Assembly: GCA_004431415.1 (NCBI GenBank)
Contig: QPMI01000100.1
Span: 248,001 to 312,000, forward strand
Direction: 5' to 3'
Length of the DNA: 64,000 nucleotides
Origin: Cyanophora paradoxa CCMP329
Taxonomy: Eukaryota > Plantae > Glaucophyta
Position numbers and translations under genes: made by a program. Below, piece after piece: positions 4,614 through 39,142 of the stretch (position 1 is its first letter; every line of letters begins with the position of its first letter). The notes beneath the pieces are model-generated. The model searched no databases. It saw only the letters and a list, made by a program, of their open reading frames with translations, and was not told where the DNA came from.

Positions 4614-4622
4614 GTTTATTCA

Positions 4623-11969: not shown

Positions 11970-12042
11970 ACACATATGAATATTCATATTTTAATCCTGA
12001 GGCGGAACGCCGAGGGATTAAAATATGAATATTCATATGTGT
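11970..12042 (+). repeat. Terminal hairpin of element A (28-bp perfect arms, 17-nt structured cap)
   Basis: acacatatgaatattcatattttaatcc - tgaggcggaacgccgag - ggattaaaatatgaatattcatatgtgt. Confidence 0.95.
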
Positions 12043-12128
12043 ATCAGAAGATGCAAATTCAGTGCATTGCCCTCGCTCATAATATCATGATAATCGGAGC
12101 TGATGGTATTCGCAGAGTATCTTCATGA
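12043..12128 (+). pseudogene. 3' remnant of the element B major capsid gene, cut by insertion of A
   Basis: QKMQIQCIALAHNIMIIGADGIRRVSS* aligns ungapped to the C MCP end RTITVNVRALMHSFIIVDKDGIRRINL*, and is followed by the ATPase as in C. Confidence 0.8.
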
Positions 12129-12186
12129 GGAATTCGTGCGATTACCACAGTCAGTCTTATTTTTCTATTGTTTTTATAGTGAAAGA

Positions 12187-12731
12187 ATGCAAAAAGGGAC
12201 GACGCCCATGGATCTCGAAGAATGGAACCCGAAACAGAGGGTGAAACTTCCCGCACGATTTCTCCTATTGGCGAAAACCAATTGTGGTAAATCGGTATTC
12301 TTAAAGTGGCTGATCAAAGAACTCGAAGATCAGATCTCATACGTTCTGGTCTTTTGTCCAACGAGTTTCAACGGTTTCTGGGACAAATTACAGACGAAGT
12401 GCATGACACCTGGAAGCCGGAATATGTGGAGTCGATCATAGAAGCCCGCAAGAAGGCTATCATTGCGGGTAAGAAACCAAAGAATATTCTCATTGTGCTC
12501 GACGATTGTTTGGAGTCCGGAACTATCGATCTTTCGCGCGATCATTTGCTAAATAAATTGATGGCGCAAGGTCGTCATACGTTTTGTTCCGTGGCTTTAA
12601 TATCGCAGAAACTAACAAAGCTTTCAACGATCATTCGCAGCAATGCGGAGTATATCATATTCCTAAGCTGGTCAAACATGCGAGAGTTTGAAGCATATCA
12701 CGAAGAGTTCGGGAACATGGATAAAGAGAGT
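12187..12731 (+). pseudogene. Frameshifted, truncated duplicate of the element B ATPase
   Basis: Part of duplication copy 1; 1-nt deletion near 12380; truncated at 12731. Confidence 0.85.
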
Positions 12732-13794
12732 GTAACGCCTGCGTAACGCGTGCATAACGCGTGCGTAACGCGTGGATAACGCGTGCGTAACGCGTGCGTA
12801 ACGCGTTACGGATAGATAATGGGTAACGCATGCGTAACGCGTTACGGATAGATAATGGGTAAAATTTGGGTTCCGGAACCCAAAAATCCTAGAAAATCAT
12901 ACAAACTGCTGTTTCTATTCACCAACTCATCAGCTATTAAAACCGCGACCATCGCCGGAATCCTCTTTGCATGCTCTATACATCAATGCTACTTTCGCGA
13001 ACCGGATCTTAGATTTACCTGGACACTGCATTTACTAGGCATCTCCCCTTGATTCCCCCTATTATATAATATTTATATTAAAGTGGACTCAAGGTTGACT
13101 CATATTAATCGTAAAAGTAGTAAAAGTATATGGAATTTGTTACGAATTCAATGCAAGGGTTGACTAAGTGGGTTGAGTTGACTGAAATTTCACAGGAAAT
13201 ATTTGGGACCAAAAGTTTTCTAAAAAGGATTTCAAAAAATGTGTCAACTCCCCCCACTTAGTCAACCCTGACCATAAACAGTAAGGATTATAGCAAACAT
13301 GTATCACAAAGTGAACATTTTGAGTCCACTTAGAAGATCCACTTTTGAAATCAAAGTTGATTTTGCTTGAAATTTCAAAGTTGATCTAAAAGTGAGTCCA
13401 CCCTGATTGATTATGGTAACAAAGTTGACTAAGTTGACTAAGTTGAGTCATCTTAAGAAATTCAAGGAGACTAAGAGTTCAAAATGTTTATGAAAAGTGA
13501 GTCAACTTAGACCACTTATGGTAACAAAGTTAAATATTTAATTGATTTAATCGGAAAAGAACATGATTTAATCGAATTTATTGATATAATTCCGATTAAA
13601 TTCATTTAGGATTCAATTAAGATCAATCGAAGTTATTGATATAATTCCGATTAACTCTAATTAAGATACAATATCGATTAATCGAGTTTATCGATATAAC
13701 ATCGATTAAATTAATTGAAAATGCATATAAAAATATGAAAATTCATGTGAAAATTCAAATACATTAATCGATTTTATTGATATAACATCGAATC

Positions 13795-13867
13795 ACACAT
13801 ATGAATATTCATATTTTAATCCTGAGGCGGAACGCCGAGGGATTAAAATATGAATATTCATATGTGT
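13795..13867 (+). repeat. Second copy of the element A terminal hairpin (within the duplication)
   Basis: Identical to 11970-12042. Confidence 0.95.
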
Positions 13868-14011
13868 ATCAGAAGATGCAAATTCAGTGCATTGCCCTCG
13901 CTCATAATATCATGATAATCGGAGCTGATGGTATTCGCAGAGTATCTTCATGAGGAATTCGTGCGATTACCACAGTCAGTCTTATTTTTCTATTGTTTTT
14001 ATAGTGAAAGA

Positions 14012-14878
14012 ATGCAAAAAGGGACGACGCCCATGGATCTCGAAGAATGGAACCCGAAACAGAGGGTGAAACTTCCCGCACGATTTCTCCTATTGGCGAA
14101 AACCAATTGTGGTAAATCGGTATTCTTAAAGTGGCTGATCAAAGAACTCGAAGATCAGATCTCATACGTTCTGGTCTTTTGTCCAACGAGTTTCAACGGT
14201 TTCTGGGGACAAATTACAGACGAAGTGCATGACACCTGGAAGCCGGAATATGTGGAGTCGATCATAGAAGCCCGCAAGAAGGCTATCATTGCGGGTAAGA
14301 AACCAAAGAATATTCTCATTGTGCTCGACGATTGTTTGGAGTCCGGAACTATCGATCTTTCGCGCGATCATTTGCTAAATAAATTGATGGCGCAAGGTCG
14401 TCATACGTTTTGTTCCGTGGCTTTAATATCGCAGAAACTAACAAAGCTTTCAACGATCATTCGCAGCAATGCGGAGTATATCATATTCCTAAGCTGGTCA
14501 AACATGCGAGAGTTTGAAGCATATCACGAAGAGTTCGGGAACATGGATAAAGAGAGTTTTAAGCGCATGTTCCAAGAATTCTGTCATAGCTACCAAGCGA
14601 TCATTCACGATAATACCGGGTATTCTGTGCGATGGTGGGTCGAAAAAGCCGATATGATCGATGACCATCCGTTTACTAAGTTCCACAAGCGGGCGGCTTT
14701 TGAAGAAAAGAAGCGAAAACAGCAAGAGGAGCAAGCGACAAAACCGCCGCCTGTCAAAGATTCGACAACTGTATGCAAAACTTTATCCAAATTTGAGCGT
14801 GAGCTTGAAGGTATCCCCAAACTTTCGCAAATTTCGCCTAAGAAAAAGAAAATGTTAATCAAATGTAAGAGAAGATAA
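14012..14878 (+). CDS. A32/FtsK-like genome packaging ATPase
   Basis: Walker A AKTNCGKS, Walker B IVLDD, QGRH...ISQ; the start at 14012 is preferred because the upstream ATG overlaps the MCP remnant. Confidence 0.9.
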   Translation: MQKGTTPMDLEEWNPKQRVKLPARFLLLAKTNCGKSVFLKWLIKELEDQISYVLVFCPTSFNGFWGQITDEVHDTWKPEYVESIIEARKKAIIAGKKPKNILIVLDDCLESGTIDLSRDHLLNKLMAQGRHTFCSVALISQKLTKLSTIIRSNAEYIIFLSWSNMREFEAYHEEFGNMDKESFKRMFQEFCHSYQAIIHDNTGYSVRWWVEKADMIDDHPFTKFHKRAAFEEKKRKQQEEQATKPPPVKDSTTVCKTLSKFERELEGIPKLSQISPKKKKMLIKCKRR

Positions 14879-14880
14879 TC

Positions 14881-15564
14881 ATGGTCTACCGAAAGAAGCC
14901 TCAAACCATTCAAACGGTCGCTTCTGGTAATCCTAATCGCGGACTTGAAGAGTCTGGATTAACGTCGGGCGGCGGTCTCGAAATGCCCGAATATCTTATA
15001 GACACTTCGCCAGAGGAGGTCGCCAAGCAAGAGGCGATTATTGCGAGTGCCACCGCGGACAAGGGCAACCAAGATAGCGGTAAACGCCAAATGGACGATT
15101 TAGCTACTGTAAAACCACAGATTGGAGGCGGCTCTGTTGATGAAGCAACCGACAAAGTAATTAAAGCGCAAGTTGTCGCAAGCCAGCACAAAACGCAAGA
15201 CGTCCCGAAAGCCGCCGAAACCGAGCTTAAAAAGCGCGGATCCTATCAAAAACACACGGTTCCTGTCGACGTTGTCATGAGCTTTGAAGAGAAAGTGCGA
15301 GACCTTGAAATGAAAGTATCAAACTACGAGAAATGGATGCAAGATTATAACGAACGCAAGAAATTAAAGGGGCTCGTGAAGAAAGAGATCTCCAAACTCG
15401 GATTAAAGCAAAAAGTCGACGTAGAGGAGATTAAAAAGGAGGAAAAAACAGATGCACAAGCCGTAACTCGTCAGCAATCGGTTGCCCCGCAATATGCACA
15501 TATAGTGCCGACAGCACCAGCGAATTTCGCGGCAATGCTCGGTGGTAAACGCCATATCCGCTAA
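14881..15564 (+). CDS. Hypothetical protein, positional homolog of 62-796
   Basis: Same position; ERKKLKGLVKKEISKLGL vs ERAKLKEMLRKEVYKMGI. Confidence 0.75.
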   Translation: MVYRKKPQTIQTVASGNPNRGLEESGLTSGGGLEMPEYLIDTSPEEVAKQEAIIASATADKGNQDSGKRQMDDLATVKPQIGGGSVDEATDKVIKAQVVASQHKTQDVPKAAETELKKRGSYQKHTVPVDVVMSFEEKVRDLEMKVSNYEKWMQDYNERKKLKGLVKKEISKLGLKQKVDVEEIKKEEKTDAQAVTRQQSVAPQYAHIVPTAPANFAAMLGGKRHIR

Positions 15565-15768
15565 TGACTGTGAATATCCGCAAGGCAAAGCTGAACCCGC
15601 CCGTATTTAGAGCGTGTCTTTATGTGGACTCCCTTGCAAAAGGGACAGGTCGGCTCCATAAACAGCATTATAAGGTCGACTAATTCGTATGGGAACACAC
15701 GAGCAAGCAATAGCCTCATTCCCTTTTATTTTCTCCGATATTTAATACGTTGCCCATTTGTAGGGTCG

Positions 15769-16206
15769 ATGAATTTCATCACACAATGCATTGAGATGTT
15801 TCAGCTTCATGTCGTGTCTAATTGCCACAGTCCATGCTGTGACACAACCGTAGAAATCGAAATATCAGATGGCGACGACAATGGAGGTAGGCGCCTTTCT
15901 GTATATTCTAACCACAGCGACAATCACAACCACCCACGATCTCGATCGCCTTCGCCTGTGCCCGCGGCTATGAGTTCTAATATCGAAACCGCTCAGATAG
16001 AGGACGTGCATGTAGAGCATATTAGAAGGCGCTCATGTCCTGAATTTGTGGAAGGGCATTTTCGCGCTGATTCACCTTATCCGATGTATAGATTGGATCA
16101 AATGGCATTAGGCGACGATGAAAATGTAACGAACCCTTATGTTTATCCTCAGCAACCTTATGTATATCCTCAGCAACAAGAACGAACCGTCTGGAATGGT
16201 TATTGA
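15769..16206 (+). CDS. Small Cys-rich protein (CHxxCC)
   Basis: MNFITQCIEMFQLHVVSNCHSPCC; start inferred from homologs. Confidence 0.75.
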   Translation: MNFITQCIEMFQLHVVSNCHSPCCDTTVEIEISDGDDNGGRRLSVYSNHSDNHNHPRSRSPSPVPAAMSSNIETAQIEDVHVEHIRRRSCPEFVEGHFRADSPYPMYRLDQMALGDDENVTNPYVYPQQPYVYPQQQERTVWNGY

Positions 16207-16330
16207 GCGGTGAATTTCGGTGGCGCTTTTATCGATCCGAGGGCAAAAAATGAAGGTTTCGGTAAAAGGTATATAAGGGCAAGGGAAATAATACAGAGTG
16301 ACAAAAAACTATTTTCTCCGGTTAAAGTAA

Positions 16331-16744
16331 ATGGCGAAACCCAAGATTTCAAACCAAGAGGCGATGGCGGCACAGCAGGAAAAGCGCAGACCCGGGCGAC
16401 CGAAAAAGGTGATTTCAGAAGAGGAGAAGGCGGAGAGATTAAGACTAAAACGCGAAAAAGACGCCGAGCGGCAGCGAAACAAGCATCAGAGACAAAAGCA
16501 GGAGCGATTAGCCGCCGGAGAGGCTACGATATTCACCCCGGAGCAGCTACAAAAGATTGCAATTCGTAAACAGCAGCGATACCAAGACGATGAAGAGTAT
16601 CGGGAGAAAATCCGAGAGAAGGCAAGGGAATACCAACGCAGAAAGAGAGCGGAACGCAAGCTGAACCCACCCGCTAAACCTCAGCCGCAAAAGCCCGCTG
16701 GAAGACCCCGAAAGCATGTGGTCGAGAACGCGAAAACTTCGTAG
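16331..16744 (+). CDS. Basic protein with two AT-hook-like motifs (type 2)
   Basis: RRPGRPKK and AGRPRKH; homolog of 1474-1800. Confidence 0.8.
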   Translation: MAKPKISNQEAMAAQQEKRRPGRPKKVISEEEKAERLRLKREKDAERQRNKHQRQKQERLAAGEATIFTPEQLQKIAIRKQQRYQDDEEYREKIREKAREYQRRKRAERKLNPPAKPQPQKPAGRPRKHVVENAKTS

Positions 16745-16913
16745 CGGAAAGTATCCGCACGATGCAAAAAATGATTAATTTTTTACCTCCCTTTTTATTC
16801 CCCGTATCGGTCAAAAAAGCACTTAAAGAATTGGCGACAAGGGTATGAAAAGGAGAATTTGGTAGATTGCGCCGAAATTATTTTCTCCGGTTATTTTAAA
16901 AGAACTAATAGAG

Positions 16914-19900
16914 ATGCCGCGCGCAACCAACAGAATCGCTAACAATGTTCGGGATGAAATTATCGGATACATTATGCAGGGATTGAGTCAGGATTTGCTA
17001 ACCGAAGAACAGGCGCATTGGGCGATGCACAACACAATGAATCGGAAGCCCAAGCTCCAAACGCTGATAGATATTCGGGATACTCTGAATGGAATCATTA
17101 ATCCCCGCGTTTTCCGCAGGGCAGAGCGGAAAGAGAAGCGCGCCGCTCGCACCCAAGTAAATATAGAAAAGCAAAAGCAAAAAGAACAAGAGGCTAAGCG
17201 TTTACAGCGTTTCGATCGCAAGCAAGAAAAGAAGCGGGCGAAAGAAGCGAAGCTTGAAGCGAAGCAACAGAAAGGCAAACTAAAAGCGGTAGAGGATGCG
17301 ATTAAACGCACTATTCTCGATCCAATCGCCCAATATGATCCGGAAACTCTCGCGACAGTTACGTTCAAGATGTGGGCACCTGGATCCGGTGCTCGGTCTT
17401 CGGAGGTAATTGTTATTCCCGGAATTCCCGAATTAAATATACCAGACAGTTCCTTTGTCACCTACCGCAATATAAGAGAGACAGTTTCGGTGAGTGTGTT
17501 GCGAAGCTTTGCTCTGGCGAAAATGGATAGAATGTCTCAAATTCTAATTAGACCGGGTCAAGTTCGTCATGATTGGCATGAGAGCGAATCAATCTTCTAT
17601 TTACTCAAAAACTACGATGAATTGGCAGTAGGACTTAAAACTTTCGGCGAAGCATACGAGGTGTTCTTCTTGAAGACACCACCAACCGAGGAACAGAAAA
17701 GACTACGCCTAATGTTTGATGATTTTGGCGGCAGTATCGATGATGCCTTTATAACTGTTCATGAGGTCGCGATCGATGGGGACGAAGGTGTCGAGGACGA
17801 TGGAGCCGGTGCTATCCCTGGCAATCGCTATGAGTTCCTGGATGAGGAGCTAATGGACAGTATGCGATGCACCGCGATTATGAGCAAATTCACAGACTAC
17901 ACATTAAATCCAAACGCGTCTGAGTTCGAAGATGTTATTGAGCTCCCCAAATCATCGACATCTAACGCTTGCGGCTACGATATGATCATCTCCACATGGG
18001 GAGCGTCCATTAAGAAGTGTCAGGAGGCGCCAAAACCGCGATATACTGACTTAACTATGTCGTACGACGGTCTCTATAAATTCTTTCACGGTCGTGAACG
18101 CACACCTGGCGACTCTCTGGCTCTCACGCTCCGCCACATCGAGAAATTCTGTAAGAGAATCCAGACAGGCTTCCGCGTCTTTGATGTCGACGGAAAGTTA
18201 ATATACAAATTCGCGGCAGAATCGATTAACAAAAACATCAATCCCCGTAATATTCACTTTATGATTCACAACAAGCATATCTATATATTCAACGATAACA
18301 TCAAGTCGCTCGAAATGCGCATGGCAAAGATGGAGGTCGAAGAGCTCGATAATCATGTTCCTAAGTCGAACTCTTCGTTAGCACTCTATAAAATTCCGAC
18401 GTGTCTTACTCACGATATCTTCGCGCACACATCCAAGGATCTGTTAAAGATCACGCAACTTAAACTATCGCCCGACGAGCGCAGTTTCATCCGCATTCTT
18501 TATACTGGGCGCGAAGGTCTGGAAGGTCTTCTATTTACGTTCCTGAAAATGCGATATGAACCCGCTGTGAAGCTAACACCATCGAAACAGATCGACAGCA
18601 TCACATTCAAAGCTAATGGCTCGATGTTCTCTATCAAAGATCCACGCACAACAGACCACTTTATTGAGCAAGATTTCGAAACAGAGGAGTATTATAATAA
18701 GGTCTGTGAAATCGGGAAGGGATTCCGCGAGTCGCTTCTAAATGCGACGAATATCTCACATTACAGCCCGAACATGCGCGAAATTCTCACGCACTACAAG
18801 CGATCCGCACTCAGCGGCTATTTCTATAAGCCAAACCCGAAAGCTACCTACACAGCTGTCGATATGGCGAAGTGCTACCCTTCGATACTGAAAGGCATGC
18901 AATATCTTCCGAAGTACAATGTATTCGATGACTTCGTTCCCTTTAAAGCGGGAAGCGACATTCTCGAATACGCGATCTACTACGTGCGTGTCGTTGCGTT
19001 TGAGAGAGAGCAAGCGACTTTCGCCGACGATGAGGATGTAGATTATGATGCCGCCATGTCTCGCAAGATTGATGGAATCGAAATTATTCTGGATCGCGCA
19101 TTTTCCGTGAGTGGTCGCTGTTATAATTTCATGACAGGCTACACTCTCTCCATGCATTGGGCGGACGTAAAGGACAAGATAGAGATTATCGCGGTCGCGG
19201 AGCCTTCGCATTTGGTGCCCAATACGTCGATCGCTGAGATGCAAAAAGTGCTGTCAAGCGACATTCAAACCACAGATAAGAAGCATATTTTAGTGAAAGA
19301 GATCGGAATGCTCGGCAAATTCCAAGACTCGCAAACATCCACGAAAATGTTCTACAACCGTGCCGAGGCTGAGAGGTTCGCCCAAGAATGCGGAGGAACA
19401 GTAGAGGTGTTTACTTTCAATCCTAAGAATTCGAAACGTGTCAAAACTCTTAGCGAATTCGAAGGTCACATCTATTTCGTTAAGATCAGCTCCCACCGCG
19501 AGCTCGTTAACGGATTCCTTCCTATCCACTTTCATATTTACGATCGCAACCGTGCTAATATGTTTGCGCAATACAAGCGCCTGACAGCGCGCGGGCACAA
19601 GGTTGCCGGGATCAGAACGGATTGCCTATATATCGAAGGTTCATGGACAAGTAAGAAAGAGTTCGACCGAAATGCGTTTGAGAACATGGGCAAATTCAGC
19701 TATATTCCCGGGAAAAGATGCCCTGAGAATGCACTCCGCCCACCACGGGGTGTAACTCTCGAATTTCAGGATCCCGACACACTCATTAACCGGTTCTCGC
19801 TGAGAGACGAATTTAATCCTGAGTGCTTTAATTGGGTTGCGGAGCTCCATAATCGTATGCTTGTCCTTGCTGACATGCCCGGAAGTGGAAAGTCGACACT

Positions 19901-21230: not shown

Positions 21231-21248
21231 ACAGGGTTAATTAGAAGA

Positions 21249-22631
21249 ATGTCACGGATCGTCAGAAGGGTAGCGGGAGAGGAGACAGAGACCACCATAC
21301 TACCTATCGCGGTTCCTGAGACTGAACAAGTCCCCCAAAAAATCACAAAACGCCAAGCAAAATCAAATTTATTAGGAGATGTTCCTTTTAGCATTGCGAA
21401 CCCGTCCTCTAAGATCGTGCGCCGCATGTATGACCCGAAGACAGGTTTTAAGAACCCATCCGCAATATACGAAGAACTGAGAAAAGAGGACAAGACCCTC
21501 ACACTGAAAGAAGTGCAAGATGTCGCAGCGAAACAGGAATTTATGCAGATCAACAAGAAGCCCCCCGCACCGACCCAAACCGCTTTTATTCCCATCACAG
21601 CCCCGCCGTGGTGCTACCAAGCCGATCTCATCTTTTATCTCTCATATGGCAGCTATAATTCCGGCTACATTGCAGTCCTTACTCTCATCGAGATGACAAG
21701 TCGAAAAGCATATGCCAAGAAGTTAAAGAATAAGGAGGGCGCAAGTGTTGCCGCCGCTTTTGCGGAGATGCTCACAGAGCTTCCGGCTCCAATGATTCGA
21801 TTGGAGACAGATAACGGCTCAGAATTCATCGCGAAGGAGTTTCAGGAGGTCGTAAAAAATAATGGAATAGAGCACCGCTTTAAACAGGTCGGAGATCACA
21901 CTTCGCTGGGAATAATGAATCGCTTTCATTTGACCCTTAAAACGATGATAAATAATTATTGTGTCGCTTATAACACAGTGCGATTTATGGACAAGCTGGA
22001 CGACTTCGTTTTCAATTACAATAACACCATTCACAGAACCATAGGAATGAAACCCGCAGATGTTAAGCTTTCTGATATGGAGCGGATCCGAGCGGCTATT
22101 ATTTCAAGGAAGAACACAATCGTAAAGGATATATTCAGCGACTTTAAACCGGGTCTCCACGTCCGTGTATTATTGCCGAGATCAAAGTTTGATAAAGGAG
22201 CGACCCAAAGGTATAGCCGAGAGGTCTACAAAATTGCGGGAAGGAGAGGAAACGCGATAGAGGTGCAAGATGCAGCGGGGAACGTTATGCCGAAGCTTTT
22301 CAAGCCGCACGAATTGCAGATCATTACAGAGGTCGAGGCTGTGGTGGAACCATCAGGCAACGCTATTTTAGCGGCTGATGTAGAGGCAGCTTCGATCCGG
22401 CAGGTTCAAAAAGAAGGTATAGATGTCGCCGCAAGTGTTCCGAGAGGGGCTTTATTGGAAGATCGCGCAGAAAAGACAAAGAGGGCGCTGAGGGAGCTCG
22501 CTAAATTAACGATTGCAGGAACTGAGAAGCTCTCAGAGGTAAACAGTCAGCGGTGGTATAAATCATTCAAGACTCAGAGCGCAAGCTATACAGCCCCTAC
22601 TACGCGCATTCTTCGGTCATCTCGTTCATAA
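21249..22631 (+). CDS. int: rve integrase (third catalytic position appears to be Asn)
   Basis: QADL / TDNGSEF / LGIMNRF; YNNTIHRTIGMKP; N- and C-termini conserved with the A integrase. Confidence 0.9.
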   Translation: MSRIVRRVAGEETETTILPIAVPETEQVPQKITKRQAKSNLLGDVPFSIANPSSKIVRRMYDPKTGFKNPSAIYEELRKEDKTLTLKEVQDVAAKQEFMQINKKPPAPTQTAFIPITAPPWCYQADLIFYLSYGSYNSGYIAVLTLIEMTSRKAYAKKLKNKEGASVAAAFAEMLTELPAPMIRLETDNGSEFIAKEFQEVVKNNGIEHRFKQVGDHTSLGIMNRFHLTLKTMINNYCVAYNTVRFMDKLDDFVFNYNNTIHRTIGMKPADVKLSDMERIRAAIISRKNTIVKDIFSDFKPGLHVRVLLPRSKFDKGATQRYSREVYKIAGRRGNAIEVQDAAGNVMPKLFKPHELQIITEVEAVVEPSGNAILAADVEAASIRQVQKEGIDVAASVPRGALLEDRAEKTKRALRELAKLTIAGTEKLSEVNSQRWYKSFKTQSASYTAPTTRILRSSRS

Positions 22632-22985: not shown

Positions 22986-23009
22986 TGTATATGTCGTTTT
23001 TTTCATTTT

Positions 23010-28610: not shown

Positions 28611-28832
28611 TCGATAGGGTGGGCGGGTGGGGTCAGGTGGGGCATGTTTTTAGAATTCCTTAGAATTTTGAGCGTCCCCAACTTTTCTTAAAATTTGACC
28701 CCACCACACCCCACCCTCCCACCTTCTCTATTATTTACTATATTCACATACAATTCAATCTACAAAAAAGTTTATAAAAATAAGGAATTACAAGGAGGTT
28801 ATGGTAACGGTGGGGTGTAGGGTGGGGTGTGA
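28611..28832. repeat. ACCCCACC iteron-like module downstream of the C primase-helicase (candidate origin)
   Basis: Its reverse complement matches 38241-38472 and 38641-38870. Confidence 0.8.
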
Positions 28833-28836
28833 TTTG

Positions 28837-31479
28837 TTACGATTCAACGTCAGAATCTTCAAACTTCGTCCCAGCTTTCTTGGCGGGAATCTTGGGGTTA
28901 GGTTCTTCCTTAATCGAATCATCATCAATTAGCTTCAACTTACGGAATTCCGCCAGCATTTCGTTCCAGATGAAGTGGTAGTAGGGTTTACCATTTGCGG
29001 TTTTCACAAGAATGTATGAAGTGCCTCGCATCTCCGTATAGAACCGCTTACTGTTGTAATCGTTCTTATATTTATTTTCCGTAATGAAGGTCTTGAATAA
29101 CTCCCATGTAGAAGCAAGACCGCTTAACTTACACTTGATTTCGGTAATCTCCCCAGTATCCATTAACCACTTTGCAAACATCAGAATGATTGGTGCGGAG
29201 ATTTGCTGAACCAGATAATACTTATTGGTCTTGGGTCTTTCTTCCTGCCAGTTGATATTATCACAATCCACCTTTGTGCGCAAGAAGTGGGTGATGTTGC
29301 GGATATTCCGAATATCATTCAACCATTTCAGAAGAGGTGTGAAGTACTCCACATTCTTACAGTATCGCTTACTCACTTCTACTACAACAAATCGACGGTC
29401 ACCCGCTTCGATCTTCACAGGGACGCTATTGTTACTTGTGAACACAATGCGCGCGAAATTCTTTTTGTCGTATGAATCTATTCCCTTGTGTTCAATAGTA
29501 ATTTTTTTAGTAGTGACAAGGTCTTTGAGAATATCGCTATTTTCGAATGTGTCTTTACCCGATGCCTCATTAACAACTATTAAGATCTTGTCTTCGCGAT
29601 TGTGAGCAAAGCGACCAAACAGGTCATCTTTCGGTTTGCCGGTCGAATATGAAAGAGCATCACCCAGAATGCTTTTCTCAAACAGATCAAACAACACGTT
29701 TTTACCAGTGCCTTGTTCACCAATTAGGATAATTGACACTCCGTTAAGTTCACCAGGTTTTTGCATCATGTGAGCAAACCATTTAAGAAGGTATTGGTAT
29801 GTGTTATCGTCTTCTCCCGACATCAGGTGAAGATGTGTGAGAAACTGCTTAATCATATCTTCGGTCACATCTTCCGGTAGTGATTCCTTGATTTCATCTA
29901 CCTCATGATCAATCTTAAAGCCAGGATACAGATTAAACACAGATTTGCATTTGGCGCTCAGTTTCGCCGGAGGCGGGAGGAAATCCACGTACATGGAACG
30001 TGTCGCCTGTGGGTCTTTGATCCATTCCGGAAATGAGGGAATCCATTTCTCAACTTCCTTCTCGGTTCCCTTGTTCAGAACGATTTTATGCATCAGGTGT
30101 GGATAGTGTTTGGAGCCGAGTTTTTGGCTATCTTTCGGGATCCACGCAAGCTGTTGTTCATCCCAATGCATCACAATACCCAGCATTTCAATGTGGTGCA
30201 TTCTCGCATTGAAATACAGACGATGCGTAGCGTAATCCTCAACGATTGGTGGGATCTTTGCGGTCTTATAATCGATGTCGTCGGAATCTTCGGGCAAGAA
30301 TGCATACTTGGTAGGGAACAACTCATTATAAAGTTCGATATCGTCCTTCTTCAACCAATAGACCAGCGAACCGTACGTTAGCCGTTTACCTTCCACCATC
30401 TTCTTGCCTTTGCAAAGACTCATGAACTTGTCATTGCATTCGTCATAATCAAACTTTTCACTTTTTTGTGAGAAGTCATGGAATATCTCAAATTGTTGCT
30501 TGCGTGGTATCTTGTTGTCTTCGCAAGCATTGATGATTGCAATACCTGTATCAATCCATGATTTGTAGGTATCCGCGCGTTCAGCATTCAAACCCATCAC
30601 AACTCCGTACAGAAGATCAAACGAAACTTCGCCACCTTTCTCTTCCTCTTCCACCTCTTCTTTCTTGGCTTCTTTTTTAGTGGTTTTCTTGGTTTCCTTC
30701 TTCGGTTCCGCTTCCTTCTTCGGTTCCGCTTCCATCTTAGTCTTTGCCTTCTTCTCTGTTTTGTTCACTGAGAAGACGTGAAAGTTTGTCTCGTCCACCA
30801 GCATTGTGGGGCAATCGGTAAATTGTACGAAAAACTCACTATCGTGCATATCCTTGCAATCGACAAACTTAGTGAATAGAACGTTCTTATCAATGTCATG
30901 CGCCCTCTTGTTTTGGGAATCAATCTTCTCACCCTTGCAACAACCCAAGCAGATTATGTTTTGAGTTGTACCATAAACACCGCTGTCGAATTCTACATTT
31001 TTGACAAGACCCATTTCATTGAAGAGTTTCGGGATATCTTCATGGCGACAGCAGAGATCAGTGAAAACGAAATGAGCGGATATCTTGAATTGATCGACAT
31101 CTTCTTTGATAAGATGAATGCGGCGATGACGAACAGATACAGCAATAGTGGCGCCGGTCAGATCATGTAATTTCTCACGCATTGCTCTAATGGTTTCTTC
31201 CGCTTCCTTGTAGTTGTCTTCAAGGTTGGGCTTCAAATCTACAAACCGATCAAGATCAAGATAAACCCGAGTTACTTGATCAGGTTGGATGCATTCAGCC
31301 CATGTTGGATACAGTCCCTTCTTCAAACTCTTATTGATGCGATCAAGAATAACATCATCATCCAGTTCCATCAGATTATCAGCATTTCGGGTTCCAGTGA
31401 GTGTTTTGAGAAACATACCAGATGTTACCTTTCCAGGGGTAAACTTGCGCAGATTGCCGAGCTTGTCCGATGGGGTCAT
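28837..31479 (-). CDS. AEP primase + PriCT-2 + SF3 helicase (element C)
   Basis: Close homolog of 2019-4613 (WAECIQP, RVYLDLD, GEQGTGKN); start placed at MTPSDK after the promoter-like motif. Confidence 0.9.
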   Translation of the reverse strand: MTPSDKLGNLRKFTPGKVTSGMFLKTLTGTRNADNLMELDDDVILDRINKSLKKGLYPTWAECIQPDQVTRVYLDLDRFVDLKPNLEDNYKEAEETIRAMREKLHDLTGATIAVSVRHRRIHLIKEDVDQFKISAHFVFTDLCCRHEDIPKLFNEMGLVKNVEFDSGVYGTTQNIICLGCCKGEKIDSQNKRAHDIDKNVLFTKFVDCKDMHDSEFFVQFTDCPTMLVDETNFHVFSVNKTEKKAKTKMEAEPKKEAEPKKETKKTTKKEAKKEEVEEEEKGGEVSFDLLYGVVMGLNAERADTYKSWIDTGIAIINACEDNKIPRKQQFEIFHDFSQKSEKFDYDECNDKFMSLCKGKKMVEGKRLTYGSLVYWLKKDDIELYNELFPTKYAFLPEDSDDIDYKTAKIPPIVEDYATHRLYFNARMHHIEMLGIVMHWDEQQLAWIPKDSQKLGSKHYPHLMHKIVLNKGTEKEVEKWIPSFPEWIKDPQATRSMYVDFLPPPAKLSAKCKSVFNLYPGFKIDHEVDEIKESLPEDVTEDMIKQFLTHLHLMSGEDDNTYQYLLKWFAHMMQKPGELNGVSIILIGEQGTGKNVLFDLFEKSILGDALSYSTGKPKDDLFGRFAHNREDKILIVVNEASGKDTFENSDILKDLVTTKKITIEHKGIDSYDKKNFARIVFTSNNSVPVKIEAGDRRFVVVEVSKRYCKNVEYFTPLLKWLNDIRNIRNITHFLRTKVDCDNINWQEERPKTNKYYLVQQISAPIILMFAKWLMDTGEITEIKCKLSGLASTWELFKTFITENKYKNDYNSKRFYTEMRGTSYILVKTANGKPYYHFIWNEMLAEFRKLKLIDDDSIKEEPNPKIPAKKAGTKFEDSDVES

Positions 31480-31691
31480 TTTCAACTTCCTCTTTCTACA
31501 ATAGGTTGAGAAAATATTTTTCTTCCTTGTCATTTTTTGGCGCATTGTCTTTAAATACTTTTTCCTCCGTATCGGGAATTAAATCGATTAAATCGGGGCA
31601 ATCGAGAAATGGTAACGGAATTACCGAATATAATCGGTAAGCCGCTCGAAAAATAAGAAATGATGTCCAGCGGCAATTGGGGGTTTTCTAT

Positions 31692-33163: not shown

Positions 33164-33946
33164 TTACAATCCCCTCTTATATCGCATCAACTTATTAGTG
33201 TGAACAGCGCTTTTAATCTCTTTCGGCGCTTCCTCCTTCTCAGGCGGTTTTAGTTCATCTTCTTTCTTTTTGGGCTTTCTGTGAAACCGAGAAAACCCAA
33301 ACTCTTTAACGAGTTCCGCTTTATCAACATAGTATTCCACCGAATAATTAGCAGAACTCCAAATGAGAAACTGATAGGAATGTACATACTCTTCAAACAT
33401 CTTATAAAAAGCGTCTTTATCCCGCATGATATTGTATTCTTCTTCGATGGCTTCAAGTTCTTTCCTGTTAGCGGCACTAAGAAACATTGCGTAATCAGAA
33501 TTGACGCGAATGGTTGAAGAAACCTTACGGAGTTTCTGTGTGATGCAAATTATCGAGATCGCGCTGTGACGCCCCCTCGAATACAGAGATCCAATAATTT
33601 TATCACGGGTTAGGTCGACAATCTCATTATCTATAAGATCATCGAGAACTACACACAATTGGTTAACAGGTTCTCCTTTCTCAATTTTCTCTTGTCTTTC
33701 ATCGAGAAGTTTAGCGATGTAGGGCGCATCCCATTTACCGAGTTGCAAGGTTGCTACTTTATCCCAGAAATGATTGAATGAGGTTCCACTTACAACGAGA
33801 ACCACATCGATCTTTTTTGCATCATGGAGTTGCTTCAACCAATACTTTACCGCTTCGCTTTTACCTGTCGCAGATTTTCCGATTGCTAAGACACAAAATG
33901 GTGGGTTTATCATCTCACCGGCATTAAATTCGGGAACGTCAGACAT
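33164..33946 (-). CDS. A32-like packaging ATPase
   Basis: GKSATGKS, VVLDD, RGRH...ITQ; start at MSDVPEF because the longer ORF overlaps the MCP. Confidence 0.9.
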   Translation of the reverse strand: MSDVPEFNAGEMINPPFCVLAIGKSATGKSEAVKYWLKQLHDAKKIDVVLVVSGTSFNHFWDKVATLQLGKWDAPYIAKLLDERQEKIEKGEPVNQLCVVLDDLIDNEIVDLTRDKIIGSLYSRGRHSAISIICITQKLRKVSSTIRVNSDYAMFLSAANRKELEAIEEEYNIMRDKDAFYKMFEEYVHSYQFLIWSSANYSVEYYVDKAELVKEFGFSRFHRKPKKKEDELKPPEKEEAPKEIKSAVHTNKLMRYKRGL

Positions 33947-34007
33947 GGCGTAGTAGATCTTTCTTAATAAAGATAGATAAAAATAACGAAATCTTACTGA
34001 TAATGGT

Positions 34008-35408
34008 TTAGAGATTAATGCGGCGAATTCCGTCCTTATCGACAATAATGAACGAATGCATGAGAGCGCGAACGTTAACAGTAATTGTACGATCAGCAGG
34101 AAGATACAGAGTGAGGAACGATGACGACGAGTTCGTAAGGTCAACATATCCAGATTGGGCAATGTTGCGAATCGCCTTCTCACCATCAACACAGAATGGA
34201 AGACCGGTGAGAACGTAGCGGTTTGCTTCCTTGTCCATATTCGAGCATTTGAAGGCATCGGCGATGAGTTCGGCACCTTTGAGTAGGGGGATTGGCTCCG
34301 TTGAATAAAGACGCTGTCCGTTGATCTCACAAGTCATTGTGATATCCTTTGCATTCGCAAGCGTTTTAAGGACGCTGTGAGAACCATTGGAAGTATCGAC
34401 ACCATCAGCATCGCGAACAGAGACAAGAAGAGCATAAACCAGACCGGAGATTTGGCTAAGATTGATTCGGTTGGGTTGAGTGTTACCTTTCGCAGCAACA
34501 CCAATTGCATCGACAAAACCGATGTCGAGAGCGGGAATAGCCATCCCCGTGGTCTTAACCTTCTCAATAACAGTAGCAAACAGTTCATCGGAAACATTGA
34601 TAGCATGCATGTAGAGACGAGGAGACTTAATGGAGATGTAATGGGTCATTGGTGGAACTGTTCCAGCAACTTCAAACCCAGTAATACCGCCAGTGGTGAT
34701 GTTTTGACCGACATGGGAAAGTATAATGGCTGTTGCAGTTCCAAGTCCGTCATCTGTTGTCTTATCGGAACCAGCCTCAGAAGCAACAGGGAGAGCGCGA
34801 CCTCCATAAGACGTTTCAAGGTAACCCTTGTTAGTTTCCTTAAACCATACAGTGATAACGGCTTCGCCCGAGAGAGCGCCAAGTGGTAGGTAGTGGTTCA
34901 ACCACGGCACCGGAATTTCAACGAAGAAAGCGCCACCTTTGCGGTTGGTTCCGTGAGCGGGAATACCATGGAGCATTCCCATTGAACGCTTCTTTTTCGC
35001 CAGCTGATCCTCAGAATAGTAGACCAGCGGGAAAATCGCCAGGAAATCAGACGGCACGTGGTAGGTTTACGAGCCATACGAGAATTCAAGACGCTCTACA
35101 AGCGCACCGACGGGACGGGTGTAACCGTTTCGCACCAGGTCAGTATCACCTTCAAAAGCGGTTAGTTCGGGAAGATCGAAAGCGAGTTCAATTTTACCGA
35201 CAAAGTTGTAGCGGGGAAGTTTGAAAGAAACACGTTGACCAACATTGTTATCGTAGGTTGTTGATGGACTAACAGTTACCAGAACGGGTTTAGTCTTCGA
35301 TTCAAGACCAAGCATAAGCGAGTTATCGAGGAAGAACGCTTTGGCTTCCTCCGGCGTTGTTAGCGCCTCTTTGAGCGATAGACGTTGGAGGGTCGATGTA
35401 ACATCCAT
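34008..35408 (-). pseudogene. Major capsid protein (double jelly-roll, about 466 codons) with one in-frame TAA (35067-35069)
   Basis: ORFs 35067-35408 and 34008-35057 are in frame (EFSYGS*TYHVPSDF); N-terminal GQRVSFKLPR...FDLPEL resembles DJR MCPs; size and position between pentons and ATPase fit. Confidence 0.75.
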
Positions 35409-35462: not shown

Positions 35463-36494
35463 TTACGCGAATCCAGCAATATTTGGATAGAAGGGGTGGG
35501 TTTCCCTCATTCTCATTTTGAAATACTCATAAATTGGATCACCGGCGGGTTCTTCTCCATAACGAATTTCGAACGTTAAATAAATGGGTTGACCTTCGAA
35601 ATCAATTAATTCATTTTGAGCATTCACTATATCTACCGACAATTGTGATAGTGACTTTTTCTGATTGAAGTATTTGTACAATGGGTTTGCTTCTGTTGAA
35701 TTGTAAATAACGTGTTCGGCAAAGTCTTTATCTTGAACCATGAGTTTATGGAAATATCCAGTAAGCAGACCATCGGCACATTGGACGAGGTCACCCAGTT
35801 CTTTTACTCTCACATAAAACACATTATCTTTGCAGACCTCAGTTGGGAATGTAGAGATAATACCATGGACATTAGCACCTGTGAAAACCTCATCGTTAGC
35901 GGTTGAATAGACTTTTGATTTAATATATCTATTTCCATATCTTCCAGCATCAATACCAAGCATTCGACCATGGCGGTTATTCTTTTCAGCTGTTGAACTT
36001 GTTGGGTCTTTTGCAGTTGAGAATGCTATATAGAATTCAGTGGGAGCATAGAAGATAATCCGTTTATTGGCTGTATCATATTTGCATCGTATGTTAGGAT
36101 CAGGATTCAAATTATCAAAACGGTTACTTATTCGAGCGGCAAGATCCGCATGGGTATTAATAACAAGTCCATCCAGGTTTTGACCAGGACGGATAGACCG
36201 CCAAACATCGTAACCAGGAGCAGGAGCATTGGCTGAGTTAACAGCATCATTTTTAAGACTGAAATTGATAGTAAAACTGTCTTCTATTGTAACATCGCCC
36301 GGAACAGTCTCACCGCTAATAAGTGGGACGGAGTTATAGAATTCCGCAGAAACAAGACGAACCGCTCTTACATTCTCAAAAGTTTTTGGGAGGTCGGCAA
36401 TAAACCGTGATGTCGGAGCATCAAGATTAGGTAGGGTTTTGAATGAAGATACTTCGACGTATTCCACCGGCATTCTTCTTTTATCTATAACCAT
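35463..36494 (-). CDS. Putative minor capsid (penton-like, single jelly-roll) protein 1
   Basis: LPKTFENVRAVRLVSAEFYNS at the N-terminus; LSQLSVDI...LIDFEG...LTFEI at the C-terminus. Confidence 0.65.
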   Translation of the reverse strand: MVIDKRRMPVEYVEVSSFKTLPNLDAPTSRFIADLPKTFENVRAVRLVSAEFYNSVPLISGETVPGDVTIEDSFTINFSLKNDAVNSANAPAPGYDVWRSIRPGQNLDGLVINTHADLAARISNRFDNLNPDPNIRCKYDTANKRIIFYAPTEFYIAFSTAKDPTSSTAEKNNRHGRMLGIDAGRYGNRYIKSKVYSTANDEVFTGANVHGIISTFPTEVCKDNVFYVRVKELGDLVQCADGLLTGYFHKLMVQDKDFAEHVIYNSTEANPLYKYFNQKKSLSQLSVDIVNAQNELIDFEGQPIYLTFEIRYGEEPAGDPIYEYFKMRMRETHPFYPNIAGFA

Positions 36495-36502
36495 ATAATA
36501 AA

Positions 36503-37414
36503 ATGATTCGGCTTGTCAATGTCGACAGTAGAGACCGATCAGAAGGACAAAAAGAAAACTCTTACAAGGTCTCACTAACTACACCAATAACGAAACCGCG
36601 AGAATGTCGAGTTTTATATGCCGAGATTCCCAACAGCATTTATAATTCGATTGGAACCGATTATATTCTGATAAGATATAATGACAATGGAGTTTTTATT
36701 AATCAGCAAGTTTCCCCATTACCCAGTGGTTACATAAATCAAGGTCACTTTGGGGTCACTCAACCTTACAATTATGGTCTGAATTATGCCGTTACTGATA
36801 ATATCATGTTTAAGATATATTACAACCCTACAACGTACAAGTTAGAATTTTATAGTAATTTTCCTTTTGAACTTATTGCAGCAAACAACAGAATCGCTAA
36901 ATTATTGGGTCTGAGTTCCACTGTATTATTAGGTAGCATTGAACAGAACTTAGAAGATAACAGGTCTTTATATGCTCCTGAAAATATCATATTTTATGCC
37001 GGAACTCCAATAACCCCAGATCATCCACAATGGGGGATAACATTTGAAGGACCTGAATTAGTATCAGCACCGTTGAAGTATAAAGCGGTTAGTCCAAAGA
37101 TGGCGGATATGAACGCTGAACAGTATTTATACATGCACATCAAAGAACTCGCGCCGTTTGCATCCAACCATAACATAGTACCGGAATCACAACCGCAAAA
37201 CCAAGGCGCAATAATGCGATTACAATTAAGCCAGGACATCGGGAAATACATCTATCACACCGGAGAAGTGAGCGAGTATGTAAAAATAAACGATCTTAAT
37301 TTGGTGATTAAAGAGTTAACAGTAGAGTTTCGTGACTATTATGGTGATCTTGTAGATATGAACGGTATAGATAATTCGTTTCAGTTGGAGGTTTTAGCGT
37401 TGGGGAGCGATTGA
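36503..37414 (+). CDS. Putative minor capsid (penton-like) protein 2
   Basis: VDSRDR...AEIPNSIYN; ELTVEFRDYYGDLVDMNG...SFQLEV. Confidence 0.7.
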   Translation: MIRLVNVDSRDRSEGQKENSYKVSLTTPITKPRECRVLYAEIPNSIYNSIGTDYILIRYNDNGVFINQQVSPLPSGYINQGHFGVTQPYNYGLNYAVTDNIMFKIYYNPTTYKLEFYSNFPFELIAANNRIAKLLGLSSTVLLGSIEQNLEDNRSLYAPENIIFYAGTPITPDHPQWGITFEGPELVSAPLKYKAVSPKMADMNAEQYLYMHIKELAPFASNHNIVPESQPQNQGAIMRLQLSQDIGKYIYHTGEVSEYVKINDLNLVIKELTVEFRDYYGDLVDMNGIDNSFQLEVLALGSD

Positions 37415-38005
37415 AAAGATATCAGCGATGAGTTGGTTGTTTTCCTCAATATACCACCTTCTACAATTGCGGCTCCACTTAGCCCCGTTGGCTTTCAAGA
37501 ATTTCCGCAGTGTAACACGGCGTGTAATCTTCAATCCATGCTCTTCAAACTTCTTATAATAAACAGACATATTGCGATCAACCTTGAAATAGAGAAGTCG
37601 GAAAGATTGAACACGCTTAATTGTTCTGATAACATCGATAAGAGAAAACGGAGTGCATCTATACAGACGCCAGAAATCCACAACAGGTTGGTATCCTCCT
37701 TCATCTTCCGTGTCGATGTCAACAATGCTATACTTAATTGAAAAATCATGGATTTTTACGTACGAGAAACCAGCGGTAGAACGAATGACAATCTTATGCG
37801 GCTCTTCAATAAAGAAACCGATCGATTGGATATCTTTCGGAGCAAAGAATGTATTAATAAAGGAAAGTAGCATACGGTCATTATCAAGTGAGAAGATGAT
37901 ATCGAACAGCTCCGCAAGAAACGGCAGCGACTCGAATCCATCATTGAAAATCGGTATGTCATCAAAGATGTATGCCATGCGATCCGTATTAATAGTAACC
38001 GCCAT
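37394..38005 (-). CDS. Hypothetical protein with a C-terminal DUF5710-like segment
   Basis: LKANGAKWSRNCRRWYI; promoter-like motif upstream of ATG 38005. Confidence 0.55.
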   Translation of the reverse strand: MAVTINTDRMAYIFDDIPIFNDGFESLPFLAELFDIIFSLDNDRMLLSFINTFFAPKDIQSIGFFIEEPHKIVIRSTAGFSYVKIHDFSIKYSIVDIDTEDEGGYQPVVDFWRLYRCTPFSLIDVIRTIKRVQSFRLLYFKVDRNMSVYYKKFEEHGLKITRRVTLRKFLKANGAKWSRNCRRWYIEENNQLIADIFSIAPQR

Positions 38006-38240
38006 TTGATCCTTACTTATCTGAAACAGAGAAAATTTTTTCCTTCTTACCCCCAATGTATCGCGTTCTCCTTAAATCATTTTCGGTTGCTCACGGGACT
38101 TTCAAATTTTCCCACGATCATCAGTAATAACGCAAATGATAGATGAGAGGATAACGTGTATGTTTAGCGGGTTGGAGAAAGCGGAGAAGCATATAGTAGC
38201 GCGATTTCCATGTTAATCTTACGTGAATCAGTAAGGAATG

Positions 38241-38870
38241 ACACCCCACCCTACACCCCACCGTTACCATAAATTATAGCATTCCCACTTTTCAAATTGC
38301 TATATATTAGGTTGAAATTACCATATAAATAAGTGGGGGATGTATGAATTAATCGACAGGGTGGGAGGGTGGGGTGTCGTGGGGTCAAATTTCCAGAAAA
38401 TTTTGAGCGGATCCCAAAATATAATGAATCTTCAAAACATGCCCCACCAGACCCCACCGCCCCACCGTATCGATAAATATATGATATGTTAGTATTAACA
38501 CTCTAATACCAGAGAGATTACACCCAACCTGTACAGATCTAACGGTATTTACACCCAACCTGTACAGATCTAACGGTATTTACATGTTAATTTCCGCTTC
38601 TATATCGTAGAGATTCCCACACTGAATTATGTAAGAGATTACACCCCACCTTACACCCAACCATTACCATAACACATAACAATTCCACTATTCAAATTGA
38701 TATATATTAGATTGAAATTACCATATAATTAAGTATGGAAGTATAAATTAATCGATAGGGTGGGGAGGTGGGGTGTGGTGGGGTCACTTTTCAGAAAAAT
38801 TTAGAACGCCAAGAAAATTATAGCAATTCGAAAAACAGACCCAACCAGACCCCACCGCCCCACCTTATCA
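38241..38870. repeat. Two terminal-region copies of the C iteron module plus a 31-bp direct repeat (about 38520-38582)
   Basis: acaccccacc...ggtgggg...accccaccgccccacc occurs twice. Confidence 0.85.
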
Positions 38871-39071
38871 TTAAATGAATCACGCAGTAAATTGTAGTTG
38901 TTTACGATAAATGCAATCGGGATTATATCGGATTTACATTAAATATATCGCGATTATATCGAATTTGCATAAAAATTAATCGTGGTTATATCGAATTTAT
39001 CATTTTCACATCGATAATTACATATAAATATGTATAATATCATGTTAAATTTATATAAAATATGTATTAAC

Positions 39072-39142
39072 ACACATAAAGATAAACGTATTTTTAACCT
39101 GAGCGGAACGCGAGGGTTAAAAATACGTTTATCTTTATGTGT
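39072..39142 (+). repeat. Terminal hairpin of element C (28-bp perfect arms, 15-nt structured cap)
   Basis: acacataaagataaacgtatttttaacc - tgagcggaacgcgag - ggttaaaaatacgtttatctttatgtgt; host DNA starts at 39143. Confidence 0.95.

What the first reader, a model, noticed from the sequence alone, without database searches (positions are those of the whole stretch)
11970..39142. Polinton-like viruses ending in a conserved, covarying snap-back hairpin (candidate hairpin-primed family)
Seen: A (11970-12042) and C (39072-39142) both end in a palindrome with exactly 28-bp perfect arms. The arms differ between the elements at 8 of 28 positions, and every change is mirrored in the partner arm. The cap is conserved: T-G wobble, tandem GA/GA, a (G)GCG stem and a GAA loop. 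The last base (TGTGT-3') is exactly the junction with target DNA in both cases. Established: Mavericks usually end 5'-AG...CT-3' and are thought to be protein-primed, while tandem sheared G-A pairs and GNA loops stabilise DNA hairpins. Inference: the cap is stable only on the strand whose 3' end is terminal. Fold-back of that strand gives a paired 3'-OH pointing into the element, as in parvovirus-like self-priming, or a structured integrase substrate. A's genes run toward its hairpin and C's run away from theirs, which implies hairpins at both ends (TIRs).
Basis: partly seen in the sequence, partly recalled or inferred. Interest (0 to 1): 0.92.

Follow-up and report, generated by a model that had tools for sequence, protein, structure and literature searches.

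The report
Fold-back hairpin ends on integrated viruses
Two related virus-like elements inserted in a eukaryote's genome end in the same 71-73-base self-pairing DNA tip with a conserved purine-rich cap, which likely folds back to start copying of the viral genome, a kind of end already proposed in 2026 for other small protist viruses but here found beside an altered polymerase of the protein-primed type.

Summary
In detail: A (11970-12042) and C (39072-39142) end in palindromes with perfect 28-bp arms, 8 of 28 positions differ and all 8 are mirrored, and the GA/GA-GAA cap is conserved. The hairpin is the only clearly conserved part of their ends. C's junction is exact against an empty host paralog. 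Short-read contigs confirm C's tip and show a third mirrored variant. A copy at 13795 is only a 99.9% duplicate. The elements are polinton-like viruses with capsid, ATPase, rve integrase, AEP-SF3 primase-helicase and a pPolB. That pPolB has lost proofreading and the usual GSGW priming loop, but keeps a conserved terminal-protein fold and vOTU protease. Snap-back priming is my best reading (0.45); protein priming on a folded 3' end is a close rival (0.3), and AC/GT ends are a known Maverick type. Neither element is held whole, so TIRs and TSDs are untested. Terminal palindromes with a hairpin-priming model were published for Halocafeteria viruses in a 2026 preprint, and this scan noted similar ends in other genomes. 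New here: the structured one-strand cap and the altered pPolB. New variant of a known kind; interest 0.5.

The parts
11970..12042 (+). Terminal palindrome of element A: 28-bp perfect arms and 17-nt cap (11998-12014: T.G, tandem GA/GA, 4-bp stem, GAA loop)
13795..13867 (+). Second, identical copy of A's palindrome inside the tandem duplication; same flank, not an independent end
39072..39142 (+). Terminal palindrome of element C: 28-bp perfect arms and 15-nt cap (39100-39114); last base is the host junction
39143..40587 (+). GC-rich host target DNA; 96% match to an uninterrupted paralog starting at 48071
10765..11969 (.). Subterminal non-coding region of A: 11-mer tandem array, repeated GTTGACTAAGT-type motifs, AT-rich ATCGAT repeats next to the hairpin
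38217..39071 (.). Subterminal non-coding region of C: two 79%-alike blocks of ACCCCACC-type motifs and an AT-rich stretch
10891..14557 (+). Tandem duplication, two units of about 1.83 kb, 99.9% identical (assembly error or very recent duplication)
2019..4613 (+). A: AEP-PriCT2-SF3 primase-helicase (D5-like), catalytic-looking motifs present
4615..4804 (.). A: internal copy of the subterminal motif block, after the primase gene
5820..9065 (+). A: pPolB-type polymerase; TP-like domain, vOTU (C231, H337), zinc finger, exonuclease remnant with EndoVII insertion, intact polymerase motifs
9069..10454 (+). A: rve integrase, D126-D188-E224
13868..22631 (+). Element B, target of A: capsid-gene tail (13870-13953), A32 ATPase, Tlr1-like vOTU-palm-SF1 helicase (16914-21230), rve integrase (21249-22631); no hairpin end found
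25283..28567 (-). C: pPolB with the same alterations as A; one in-frame stop at codon 99
28611..28858 (.). C: internal inverted copy of the subterminal motif block, between primase and PolB
28837..31545 (-). C: AEP-PriCT2-SF3 primase-helicase, 65% identical to A's
33164..34258 (-). C: A32-type packaging ATPase (true start probably further in)
34008..35408 (-). C: major capsid protein gene, 467 codons with one in-frame stop; likely double jelly-roll
35463..37414 (.). C: two genes of 343 and 303 aa, possibly minor capsid proteins (by position and my reading of the sequence; no Pfam hit, one weak PHROG hit to a family of unknown function)

Best explanation
The palindrome is the true last 71-73 bases of these integrated polinton-like viruses, and its 3'-terminal strand likely folds back into a capped hairpin that likely primes copying of the free genome and would later be cut at the terminal TGTGT for integration. 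Inferred: (1) after release from the chromosome or during strand displacement by the SF3 helicase, the 3' strand snaps back and leaves a paired 3'-OH facing the element; (2) the exonuclease-dead PolB or the AEP primase-polymerase extends it, closing that end; (3) a site-specific cut after TGTGT, probably by the rve integrase reading the GA cap and the fixed 28-bp stem, restores the end and supplies the 3'-OH for strand transfer; (4) host gap repair copies through the stem and fixes the full arm-cap-arm palindrome at the junction. Cutting at that place keeps one cap orientation and needs no Rep/HUH protein.
For: Hairpin is the only strong A-C match in about 1.6 kb of end DNA; 8 of 8 variable pairs mirrored plus a paired cap insertion; a third variant in 3 of 4 runs laid has 17-nt loose ends that are reverse complements, differ from C at 6 of 17 places (counted by eye) and stop at TGTGT. 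Tandem G.A pairs stack well in DNA and GNA triplets can close hairpins (PMC11014236 passages). Both PolBs replace the G-S-G-W-type loop, where the priming residue is predicted to lie with a Gly or Pro nearby (10.1101/2024.03.18.585575), by V-D-S-Y, while 49 of 55 relatives covering the region have Ser-x-hydrophobic and 51 of 55 a Gly next to Ser. Both lost the ExoI Asp (kept in 69 of 72 relatives), ExoII and about 100 residues (175-176 vs 268-347 residues between EndoVII and motif A in 56 relatives). Both carry AEP-SF3, and in Halocafeteria terminal palindromes go preferentially with non-pPolB replicases and particular rve integrases.
Against: The TP-like domain is as conserved between A and C (68% identity, 60% of identical codons changed silently) as the polymerase domain (62%), and so is vOTU (67%), with Cys and His intact; a Ser still lies in the loop (residue 185, model) and may be the same Ser after a one-residue deletion. 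ACACA ends fit jumping-back protein priming. Mavirus also has an exonuclease remnant plus SF3 helicase, and the paper on its endogenous relatives has no occurrence of hairpin or palindrome. EndoVII is general in this PolB group, so it is no special sign of hairpin resolution. No free viral DNA, no whole element and no TSD were seen. Nearest-neighbour folding separates the two strands by only 1.1 kcal/mol.
Confidence: 0.45

Rival explanations
1. Protein priming is kept. The primase-helicase or strand displacement exposes the 3' end, which folds into a nuclease-resistant hairpin recognised by a protein, and the TP domain primes at the terminal ACACA, as in Streptomyces end patching or an adenovirus-type origin. 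The hairpin protects, is recognised and repairs the tip but is not the primer.
For: TP fold and vOTU conserved under purifying selection; Ser185 and Tyr186 at the predicted place; dinucleotide-repeat ends like the Maverick (AC)3A type; one cap orientation only; Streptomyces 3' overhangs carry palindromes with sheared G:A GNA loops, are patched from a terminal protein and are repaired by fold-back extension (PMC5449611 passages); an exonuclease-dead polymerase would suffice for a short patch.
Against: Loss of the Gly-Ser loop seen in most relatives; perfect 28/28 arms in each variant suggest one arm is copied from the other rather than merely selected; palindromic ends occur in elements that lack pPolB altogether.
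Confidence: 0.3
2. The free genome has covalently closed, poxvirus-like telomeres resolved from palindromic dimer junctions by a junction nuclease such as the EndoVII domain; the integrase opens them off-centre, and the palindrome is the opened telomere.
For: Explains perfect arms at no cost (they are the two strands of one duplex) and the fixed 28-bp length; D5-like primase-helicase and EndoVII domain are present. In 2 of 4 runs a contig stops exactly at the end of the inner arm, 39099, as a reversed cap or fold-back molecule would cause.
Against: Symmetric resolution should give both cap orientations; A, C and the read variant all show one, and in 2 of 4 runs contigs pass into or through the cap unbroken. 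The cap's G.A features are on one strand only. Three ends is a small sample.
Confidence: 0.12
3. The palindrome is a by-product of fold-back copying at a broken or single-stranded end, inherited by the family without a role of its own.
For: Mirrored changes arise from any arm-to-arm copying; the Halocafeteria authors name accidental annealing as an alternative.
Against: Same length, same terminal bases and same cap in elements whose other end DNA no longer aligns; the cap insertion is paired.
Confidence: 0.08

Closest known systems
Palindrome-ended endogenous virophages (subtypes 1, 2, 5, 6) and PLV subtype 4 of Halocafeteria seosinensis (bioRxiv 10.64898/2026.07.28.741278; section 7 and passages read)
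   Same: Palindrome at the very end of an integrated small dsDNA virus with rve integrase; hairpin-priming model proposed; nesting of elements; some elements with two replicases.
   Different: There preferentially with non-pPolB replicases, 52 nt in subtype 5; the text has no occurrence of loop, compensatory or sheared. Here 71-73 nt, a structured one-strand cap, mirrored variation and a conserved but altered pPolB. Their sequences (figures, supplements) could not be seen, so relatedness of the tips is untested.
Polintons/Mavericks, including the 5'-(AC)3A//T(GT)3-3' end type (PMC8097293, passages read)
   Same: pPolB with TP and vOTU domains, rve integrase, A32 ATPase, capsid gene, dinucleotide-repeat termini.
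   Different: No Ulp1 protease found, extra AEP-SF3 primase-helicase, exonuclease-dead PolB, capsid protein nearest to NCLDV-type clusters, terminal hairpin.
Mavirus and low-GC EMALE virophages (10.1101/2024.03.18.585575 parts 1-3; PMC8547959 passages)
   Same: pPolB with only an exonuclease remnant, together with a helicase or primase-helicase and rve integrase.
   Different: Virophages have a maturation protease, none found here; no terminal palindromes mentioned for EMALEs.
Parvovirus terminal hairpins and rolling-hairpin replication (PMC8242256, passages read)
   Same: Terminal fold-back with mismatches and an SF3 helicase; some parvovirus termini occur in one orientation only.
   Different: Those are ssDNA viruses with an HUH nickase (recalled); none was found here, and these elements are dsDNA-type and integrate by a DDE integrase.
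Streptomyces telomeres (PMC5449611, passages read)
   Same: 3'-strand palindromes with sheared G:A GNA loops at ends of a linear replicon that also has a terminal protein.
   Different: Bacterial Tpg/Tap system with several short palindromes and no family B polymerase; an analogy, not homology.

Membership tests
Polinton-like virus (broad sense) | [quoted passage not shown] | tested here: met
   ESM Atlas score 0.97-0.98 to viral clusters, some with Capsid_NCLDV (13-18% of members) or Capsid_N (10-14%), recognition value below the tool's strong level; intact relative P0005. Pfam, PDB sequence search and a single-sequence fold gave nothing.
Polinton-like virus (broad sense) | A32-type packaging ATPase | tested here: met
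   Pox_A32 in B (E 1.8e-10) and C (E 3.7e-9)
Polinton/Maverick (strict) | pPolB and rve integrase | tested here: met
   A has both; C's integrase side is missing from the window
Polinton/Maverick (strict) | Ulp1-type maturation protease | tested here: not met
   No protease family among 31 ORFs scanned, none evident among 60-100 aa ORFs read by eye; the elements are incomplete, so absence is provisional
Polinton/Maverick (strict) | TIRs at both ends and 5-6 bp TSD | not testable with these tools
   No whole element and no genome held; inferred from opposite orientation of A and C
Polinton/Maverick (strict) | TP domain with linking Ser or Tyr near Gly or Pro | tested here: inconclusive
   Fold pattern kept and Ser185 in the loop, but Gly lost and register shifted
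Virophage (Maveriviricetes) | Virophage-type MCP and maturation protease | tested here: not met
   No protease found; the intact relative P0005 has no PDB match below E 0.3; Atlas points to NCLDV-type capsid clusters
Halocafeteria-type palindrome-ended elements | Palindrome at the terminus next to target DNA | tested here: met
Halocafeteria-type palindrome-ended elements | Non-pPolB replicase | tested here: inconclusive
   AEP-SF3 present, but together with a conserved pPolB
Halocafeteria-type palindrome-ended elements | Same rve integrase clade | not tested
Parvovirus-type rolling hairpin | HUH/Rep nickase | tested here: not met
   No such family among 31 ORFs; elements incomplete
Parvovirus-type or poxvirus-type hairpin ends | Flip and flop cap orientations | tested here: inconclusive
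   One orientation in A, C and the read variant; unexplained contig break at 39099 in 2 of 4 runs
Any hairpin-primed replicon | Primer-free extension from the folded 3' end | not testable with these tools
   needs biochemistry

The most novel reading that the evidence does not exclude
These viruses are caught switching from protein priming to hairpin priming: a polinton-type polymerase has lost its priming loop and proofreading, keeps the terminal-protein fold only as a DNA clamp, and starts from a GA-capped snap-back end that the retroviral-type integrase reopens at a fixed 28 bp from the cap, so one 71-base tip serves as origin, telomere and integration site.
Probability: 0.22. Interest if true: 0.82.

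Novelty: new variant of a known kind. Interest (0 to 1): 0.5.

Why it matters
How most polinton-like viruses copy and protect their ends is unknown. This tip is short, has natural variants, a defined cap and an exact cut site, and sits beside the polymerase, primase-helicase and integrase that should act on it, so hairpin priming versus protein priming can be tested with oligonucleotides and purified proteins. If the pPolB starts from the hairpin, it would link protein-primed polintons with the palindrome-ended elements that lack pPolB, and show a retroviral-type integrase working on a folded end.

Tried and rejected
No whole genome is held, so other genomic copies and second ends could not be collected. 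Cap pattern in IMG/VR: 3 loci, 0 of 3 with a hairpin; the 2 whose genes were listed look like phage DNA. End-plus-cap pattern: 1 IMG/VR locus without arms and 0 in metagenome contigs. Protein scans found no close relatives: PolB 1 hit at 27%, integrase 3 hits, primase 0 loci, integrase 0 and then 2 loci. Among 100 loci of PolB relatives (about 29-39% identity) none had the GA cap; a two-sequence covariance model found 0 matches at E 0.1 in 100 of the 106 loci held (L001-3, L024, L105, L106 left out) and no further copy in the window. Most of these contigs do not reach genome ends, so this is weak. Rfam: 0 matches in 10400-39400. A long-read fold-back artefact was considered and rejected for C, since assembled contigs of other runs hold the tip. 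Contig depth at C's subterminal region was 1.2-2.0 times interior depth; the tool warns that this is no copy number, so it is not counted as evidence for TIRs. The region between B and C shows no match to A's or C's ends better than E 0.058. The single-sequence capsid model was unusable (pLDDT 32). The domain identities used a wrong frame and were redone. Papers 10.1101/2022.05.25.493380 (protein beta-hairpins in the passages shown), PMC12721341, PMC11296320 and 10.1101/2022.07.28.501842 (passages) gave nothing on terminal palindromes of PLVs. A closer listing of read contigs at C's tip could not be obtained, so the number of distinct flanks and the cap orientation across copies remain open.
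Full report
Observation. The window has a low-GC region (1-39142, about 31-51% GC per kb) followed by GC-rich host DNA. A scan for perfect arms of 13 bp or more finds three 28-bp-arm palindromes, at 11970-12042, 13795-13867 and 39072-39142, and two 14-bp ones in a tandem array. A and C arms differ at 8 of 28 places, all mirrored, and A's two extra cap bases are a paired insertion. Chance arms reached at most 12 bp in 40 simulations of the region and 13 bp in 300 simulations of the AT-rich ends. The hairpin is the only strong similarity between the end regions of A and C. The copy at 13795 lies in a 99.9% identical 1.83-kb duplication with the same flank, so the window holds two independent ends, not three.

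Junctions. DNA after 39142 matches an uninterrupted host paralog from 48071, so C ends exactly at TGTGT. DNA after 12042 encodes a tail like that of the capsid protein P0005 and leads into an ATPase gene, so A is inserted in the capsid gene of another element, B. Of 23 runs listed I laid 4 (assembled contigs only; X18 and X19 are one sample; the tables shown were cut by the tool). One contig spans 38831-39143 with 3 other letters, which rules out a long-read artefact. In 3 of 4 runs a variant appears whose loose end behind 39125 is 17 nt long and stops at TGTGT; in 2 of 4 the matching loose end before 39089 is its reverse complement; it differs from C at 6 of 17 places (counted by eye). Contigs cannot prove an end, but a stop there is what several different flanks would cause. 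In 2 of 4 runs a contig stops at 39099, the end of the inner arm; a reversed cap, a fold-back molecule or one copy with a flank starting GT would each explain it, and I could not tell them apart.

Anatomy. A (genes on +): primase-helicase, RING, GIY-YIG, PolB, rve integrase, then 1.5 kb of non-coding end. C (mostly -): end region, two possible minor capsid genes, capsid gene, ATPase, primase-helicase, PolB. They are syntenic and about 64-74% alike in DNA in opposite orientation, so the hairpin lies downstream of the integrase in A and upstream of the capsid module in C. That implies inverted hairpins at both ends of the family map, but no single element was seen whole. C carries one in-frame stop in PolB and one in the capsid gene. 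B has a 1438-aa protein with vOTU, palm and SF1 motifs, the Tlr1-like layout of 10.1101/2024.03.18.585575 (parts 1-3 of 5 read), and no hairpin copy. The capsid assignment rests on the Atlas and gene order; Pfam and PDB searches were blank. No maturation protease was found. The host was not identified; high GC and a capsid relative in a eukaryotic proteome set (P0005) suggest a unicellular eukaryote (inference).

The polymerase. The model of A's PolB (20-sequence alignment, mean pLDDT 81.5) matches phi29-type and bidnavirus/adintovirus polymerases. From 100 loci of relatives (the metagenome scan kept the best 80 of 571 and covered 14 of 64 parts) 141 ORFs were aligned with A and C. vOTU Cys (61 of 61 rows with a residue) and His (71 of 71) are kept in A and C. 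The ExoI Asp (69 of 72) is Lys in both; ExoII and the KGxxPY motif (both present in 54 of 56 ORFs spanning the region) are gone with about 100 residues. In the loop where the priming residue is predicted, 49 of 55 relatives have Ser-x-hydrophobic and 51 of 55 a Gly beside Ser; A and C read V-D-S-Y. That the GSGW serine is the linking residue is my mapping from the paper's description, not shown there for this group, and alignments placed the loop in different registers, so Ser185 may still be the same residue. Against loss of function, the TP-like domain is 68% identical between A and C with 60% of identical codons changed silently, like the rest of the protein.

Folding. Both strands fold with z about -13; the 3'-terminal strand is favoured by 1.1 kcal/mol. 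The model probably under-counts tandem G.A stacking (PMC11014236 passages). From memory, the extra-stable GNA mini-hairpins are closed by C-G, whereas this loop is closed by G-C. The one-strand bias is real in pattern but unmeasured.

Mechanism. The conserved, one-strand cap says that the 3'-terminal strand folds and is probably read by a protein. Two models use such a fold. In snap-back priming the paired 3'-OH is extended and a cut after TGTGT, most simply by the integrase, restores the end; this keeps one orientation and fits the altered priming loop, the AEP-SF3 gene and the published link with non-pPolB elements (0.45). In protein priming on a folded overhang, as in Streptomyces (PMC5449611 passages), the TP domain primes at ACACA; this fits the conserved TP and vOTU domains and the Maverick AC/GT end type (PMC8097293 passages) (0.3). 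Closed flip/flop telomeres (0.12) and a by-product (0.08) fit less well. Some parvovirus termini occur in one form only (PMC8242256 passages), so a single orientation does not by itself exclude hairpin priming.

Prior art and novelty. bioRxiv 10.64898/2026.07.28.741278 (section 7 and passages; figures and supplements not seen) reports palindromes at TIR tips next to TSDs in four virophage subtypes and one PLV subtype and proposes hairpin priming. Five searches aimed at such ends gave no other description that I found; I read passages of only some of the listed papers, and the library lacks most subscription papers. That preprint's main text has no mention of a loop, compensatory change or sheared pairs. 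10.64898/2026.10.13.758929 (section 13 and passages) describes tandem elements and double replicases like those here. Earlier notes of this scan report palindromic tips in other genomes; I did not test them and did not use them for the score. Verdict: real, well-defined and testable; a new variant of a recently described kind of end. Interest 0.5.

Noticed in passing
window 10891-14557: Tandem duplication of 1.83 kb, 99.9% identical, carrying A's end, the junction and the start of B's ATPase gene; starts inside an 11-mer array. Assembly error or very recent slippage.
   Followed up: partly
window 4615-4804 and 28611-28858: Each element has an internal copy of its own subterminal motif block right after the primase-helicase gene; the motifs differ between A and C. 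Possible origins or module borders.
   Followed up: partly
window 21249-22631: B's rve integrase has Asn where A and three relatives have the third catalytic Glu, and shares a near-identical C-terminal tail with A's integrase despite 37% identity overall.
   Followed up: no
window 22671-25283: Between B's integrase and C's PolB: DUF5710 gene, S-adenosylmethionine decarboxylase-like gene, 32-bp tandem array, a zinc-finger gene like EndoVII/HNH N-termini and repeated motifs; neither B's end nor C's integrase is present, suggesting a deletion between the two elements.
   Followed up: partly
window 16914-21230: Tlr1-like replicase with vOTU, palm, SF1 helicase and a C-terminal EndoVII-like domain.
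   Followed up: partly
window 11969 and 39071: The base just inside the palindrome is C in A, C and the read variant, extending the CA repeat on the inner side only; could be part of the cut site.
   Followed up: no
window 11975-11990: A's arm holds a 16-nt self-complementary stretch, absent from C's arm.
   Followed up: no
L079 15-75; L075 134-192; L062 4175-4231: Long hairpins (18-26 bp arms) in metagenome contigs with PolB relatives; those in L079 and L075 lie near the contig start and lack the GA cap.
   Followed up: no
window 39143-54000: Host DNA next to C is a mosaic of 94-99% identical segmental repeats; a KIF1B/kinesin-like frame lies at 59977-61989.
   Followed up: no
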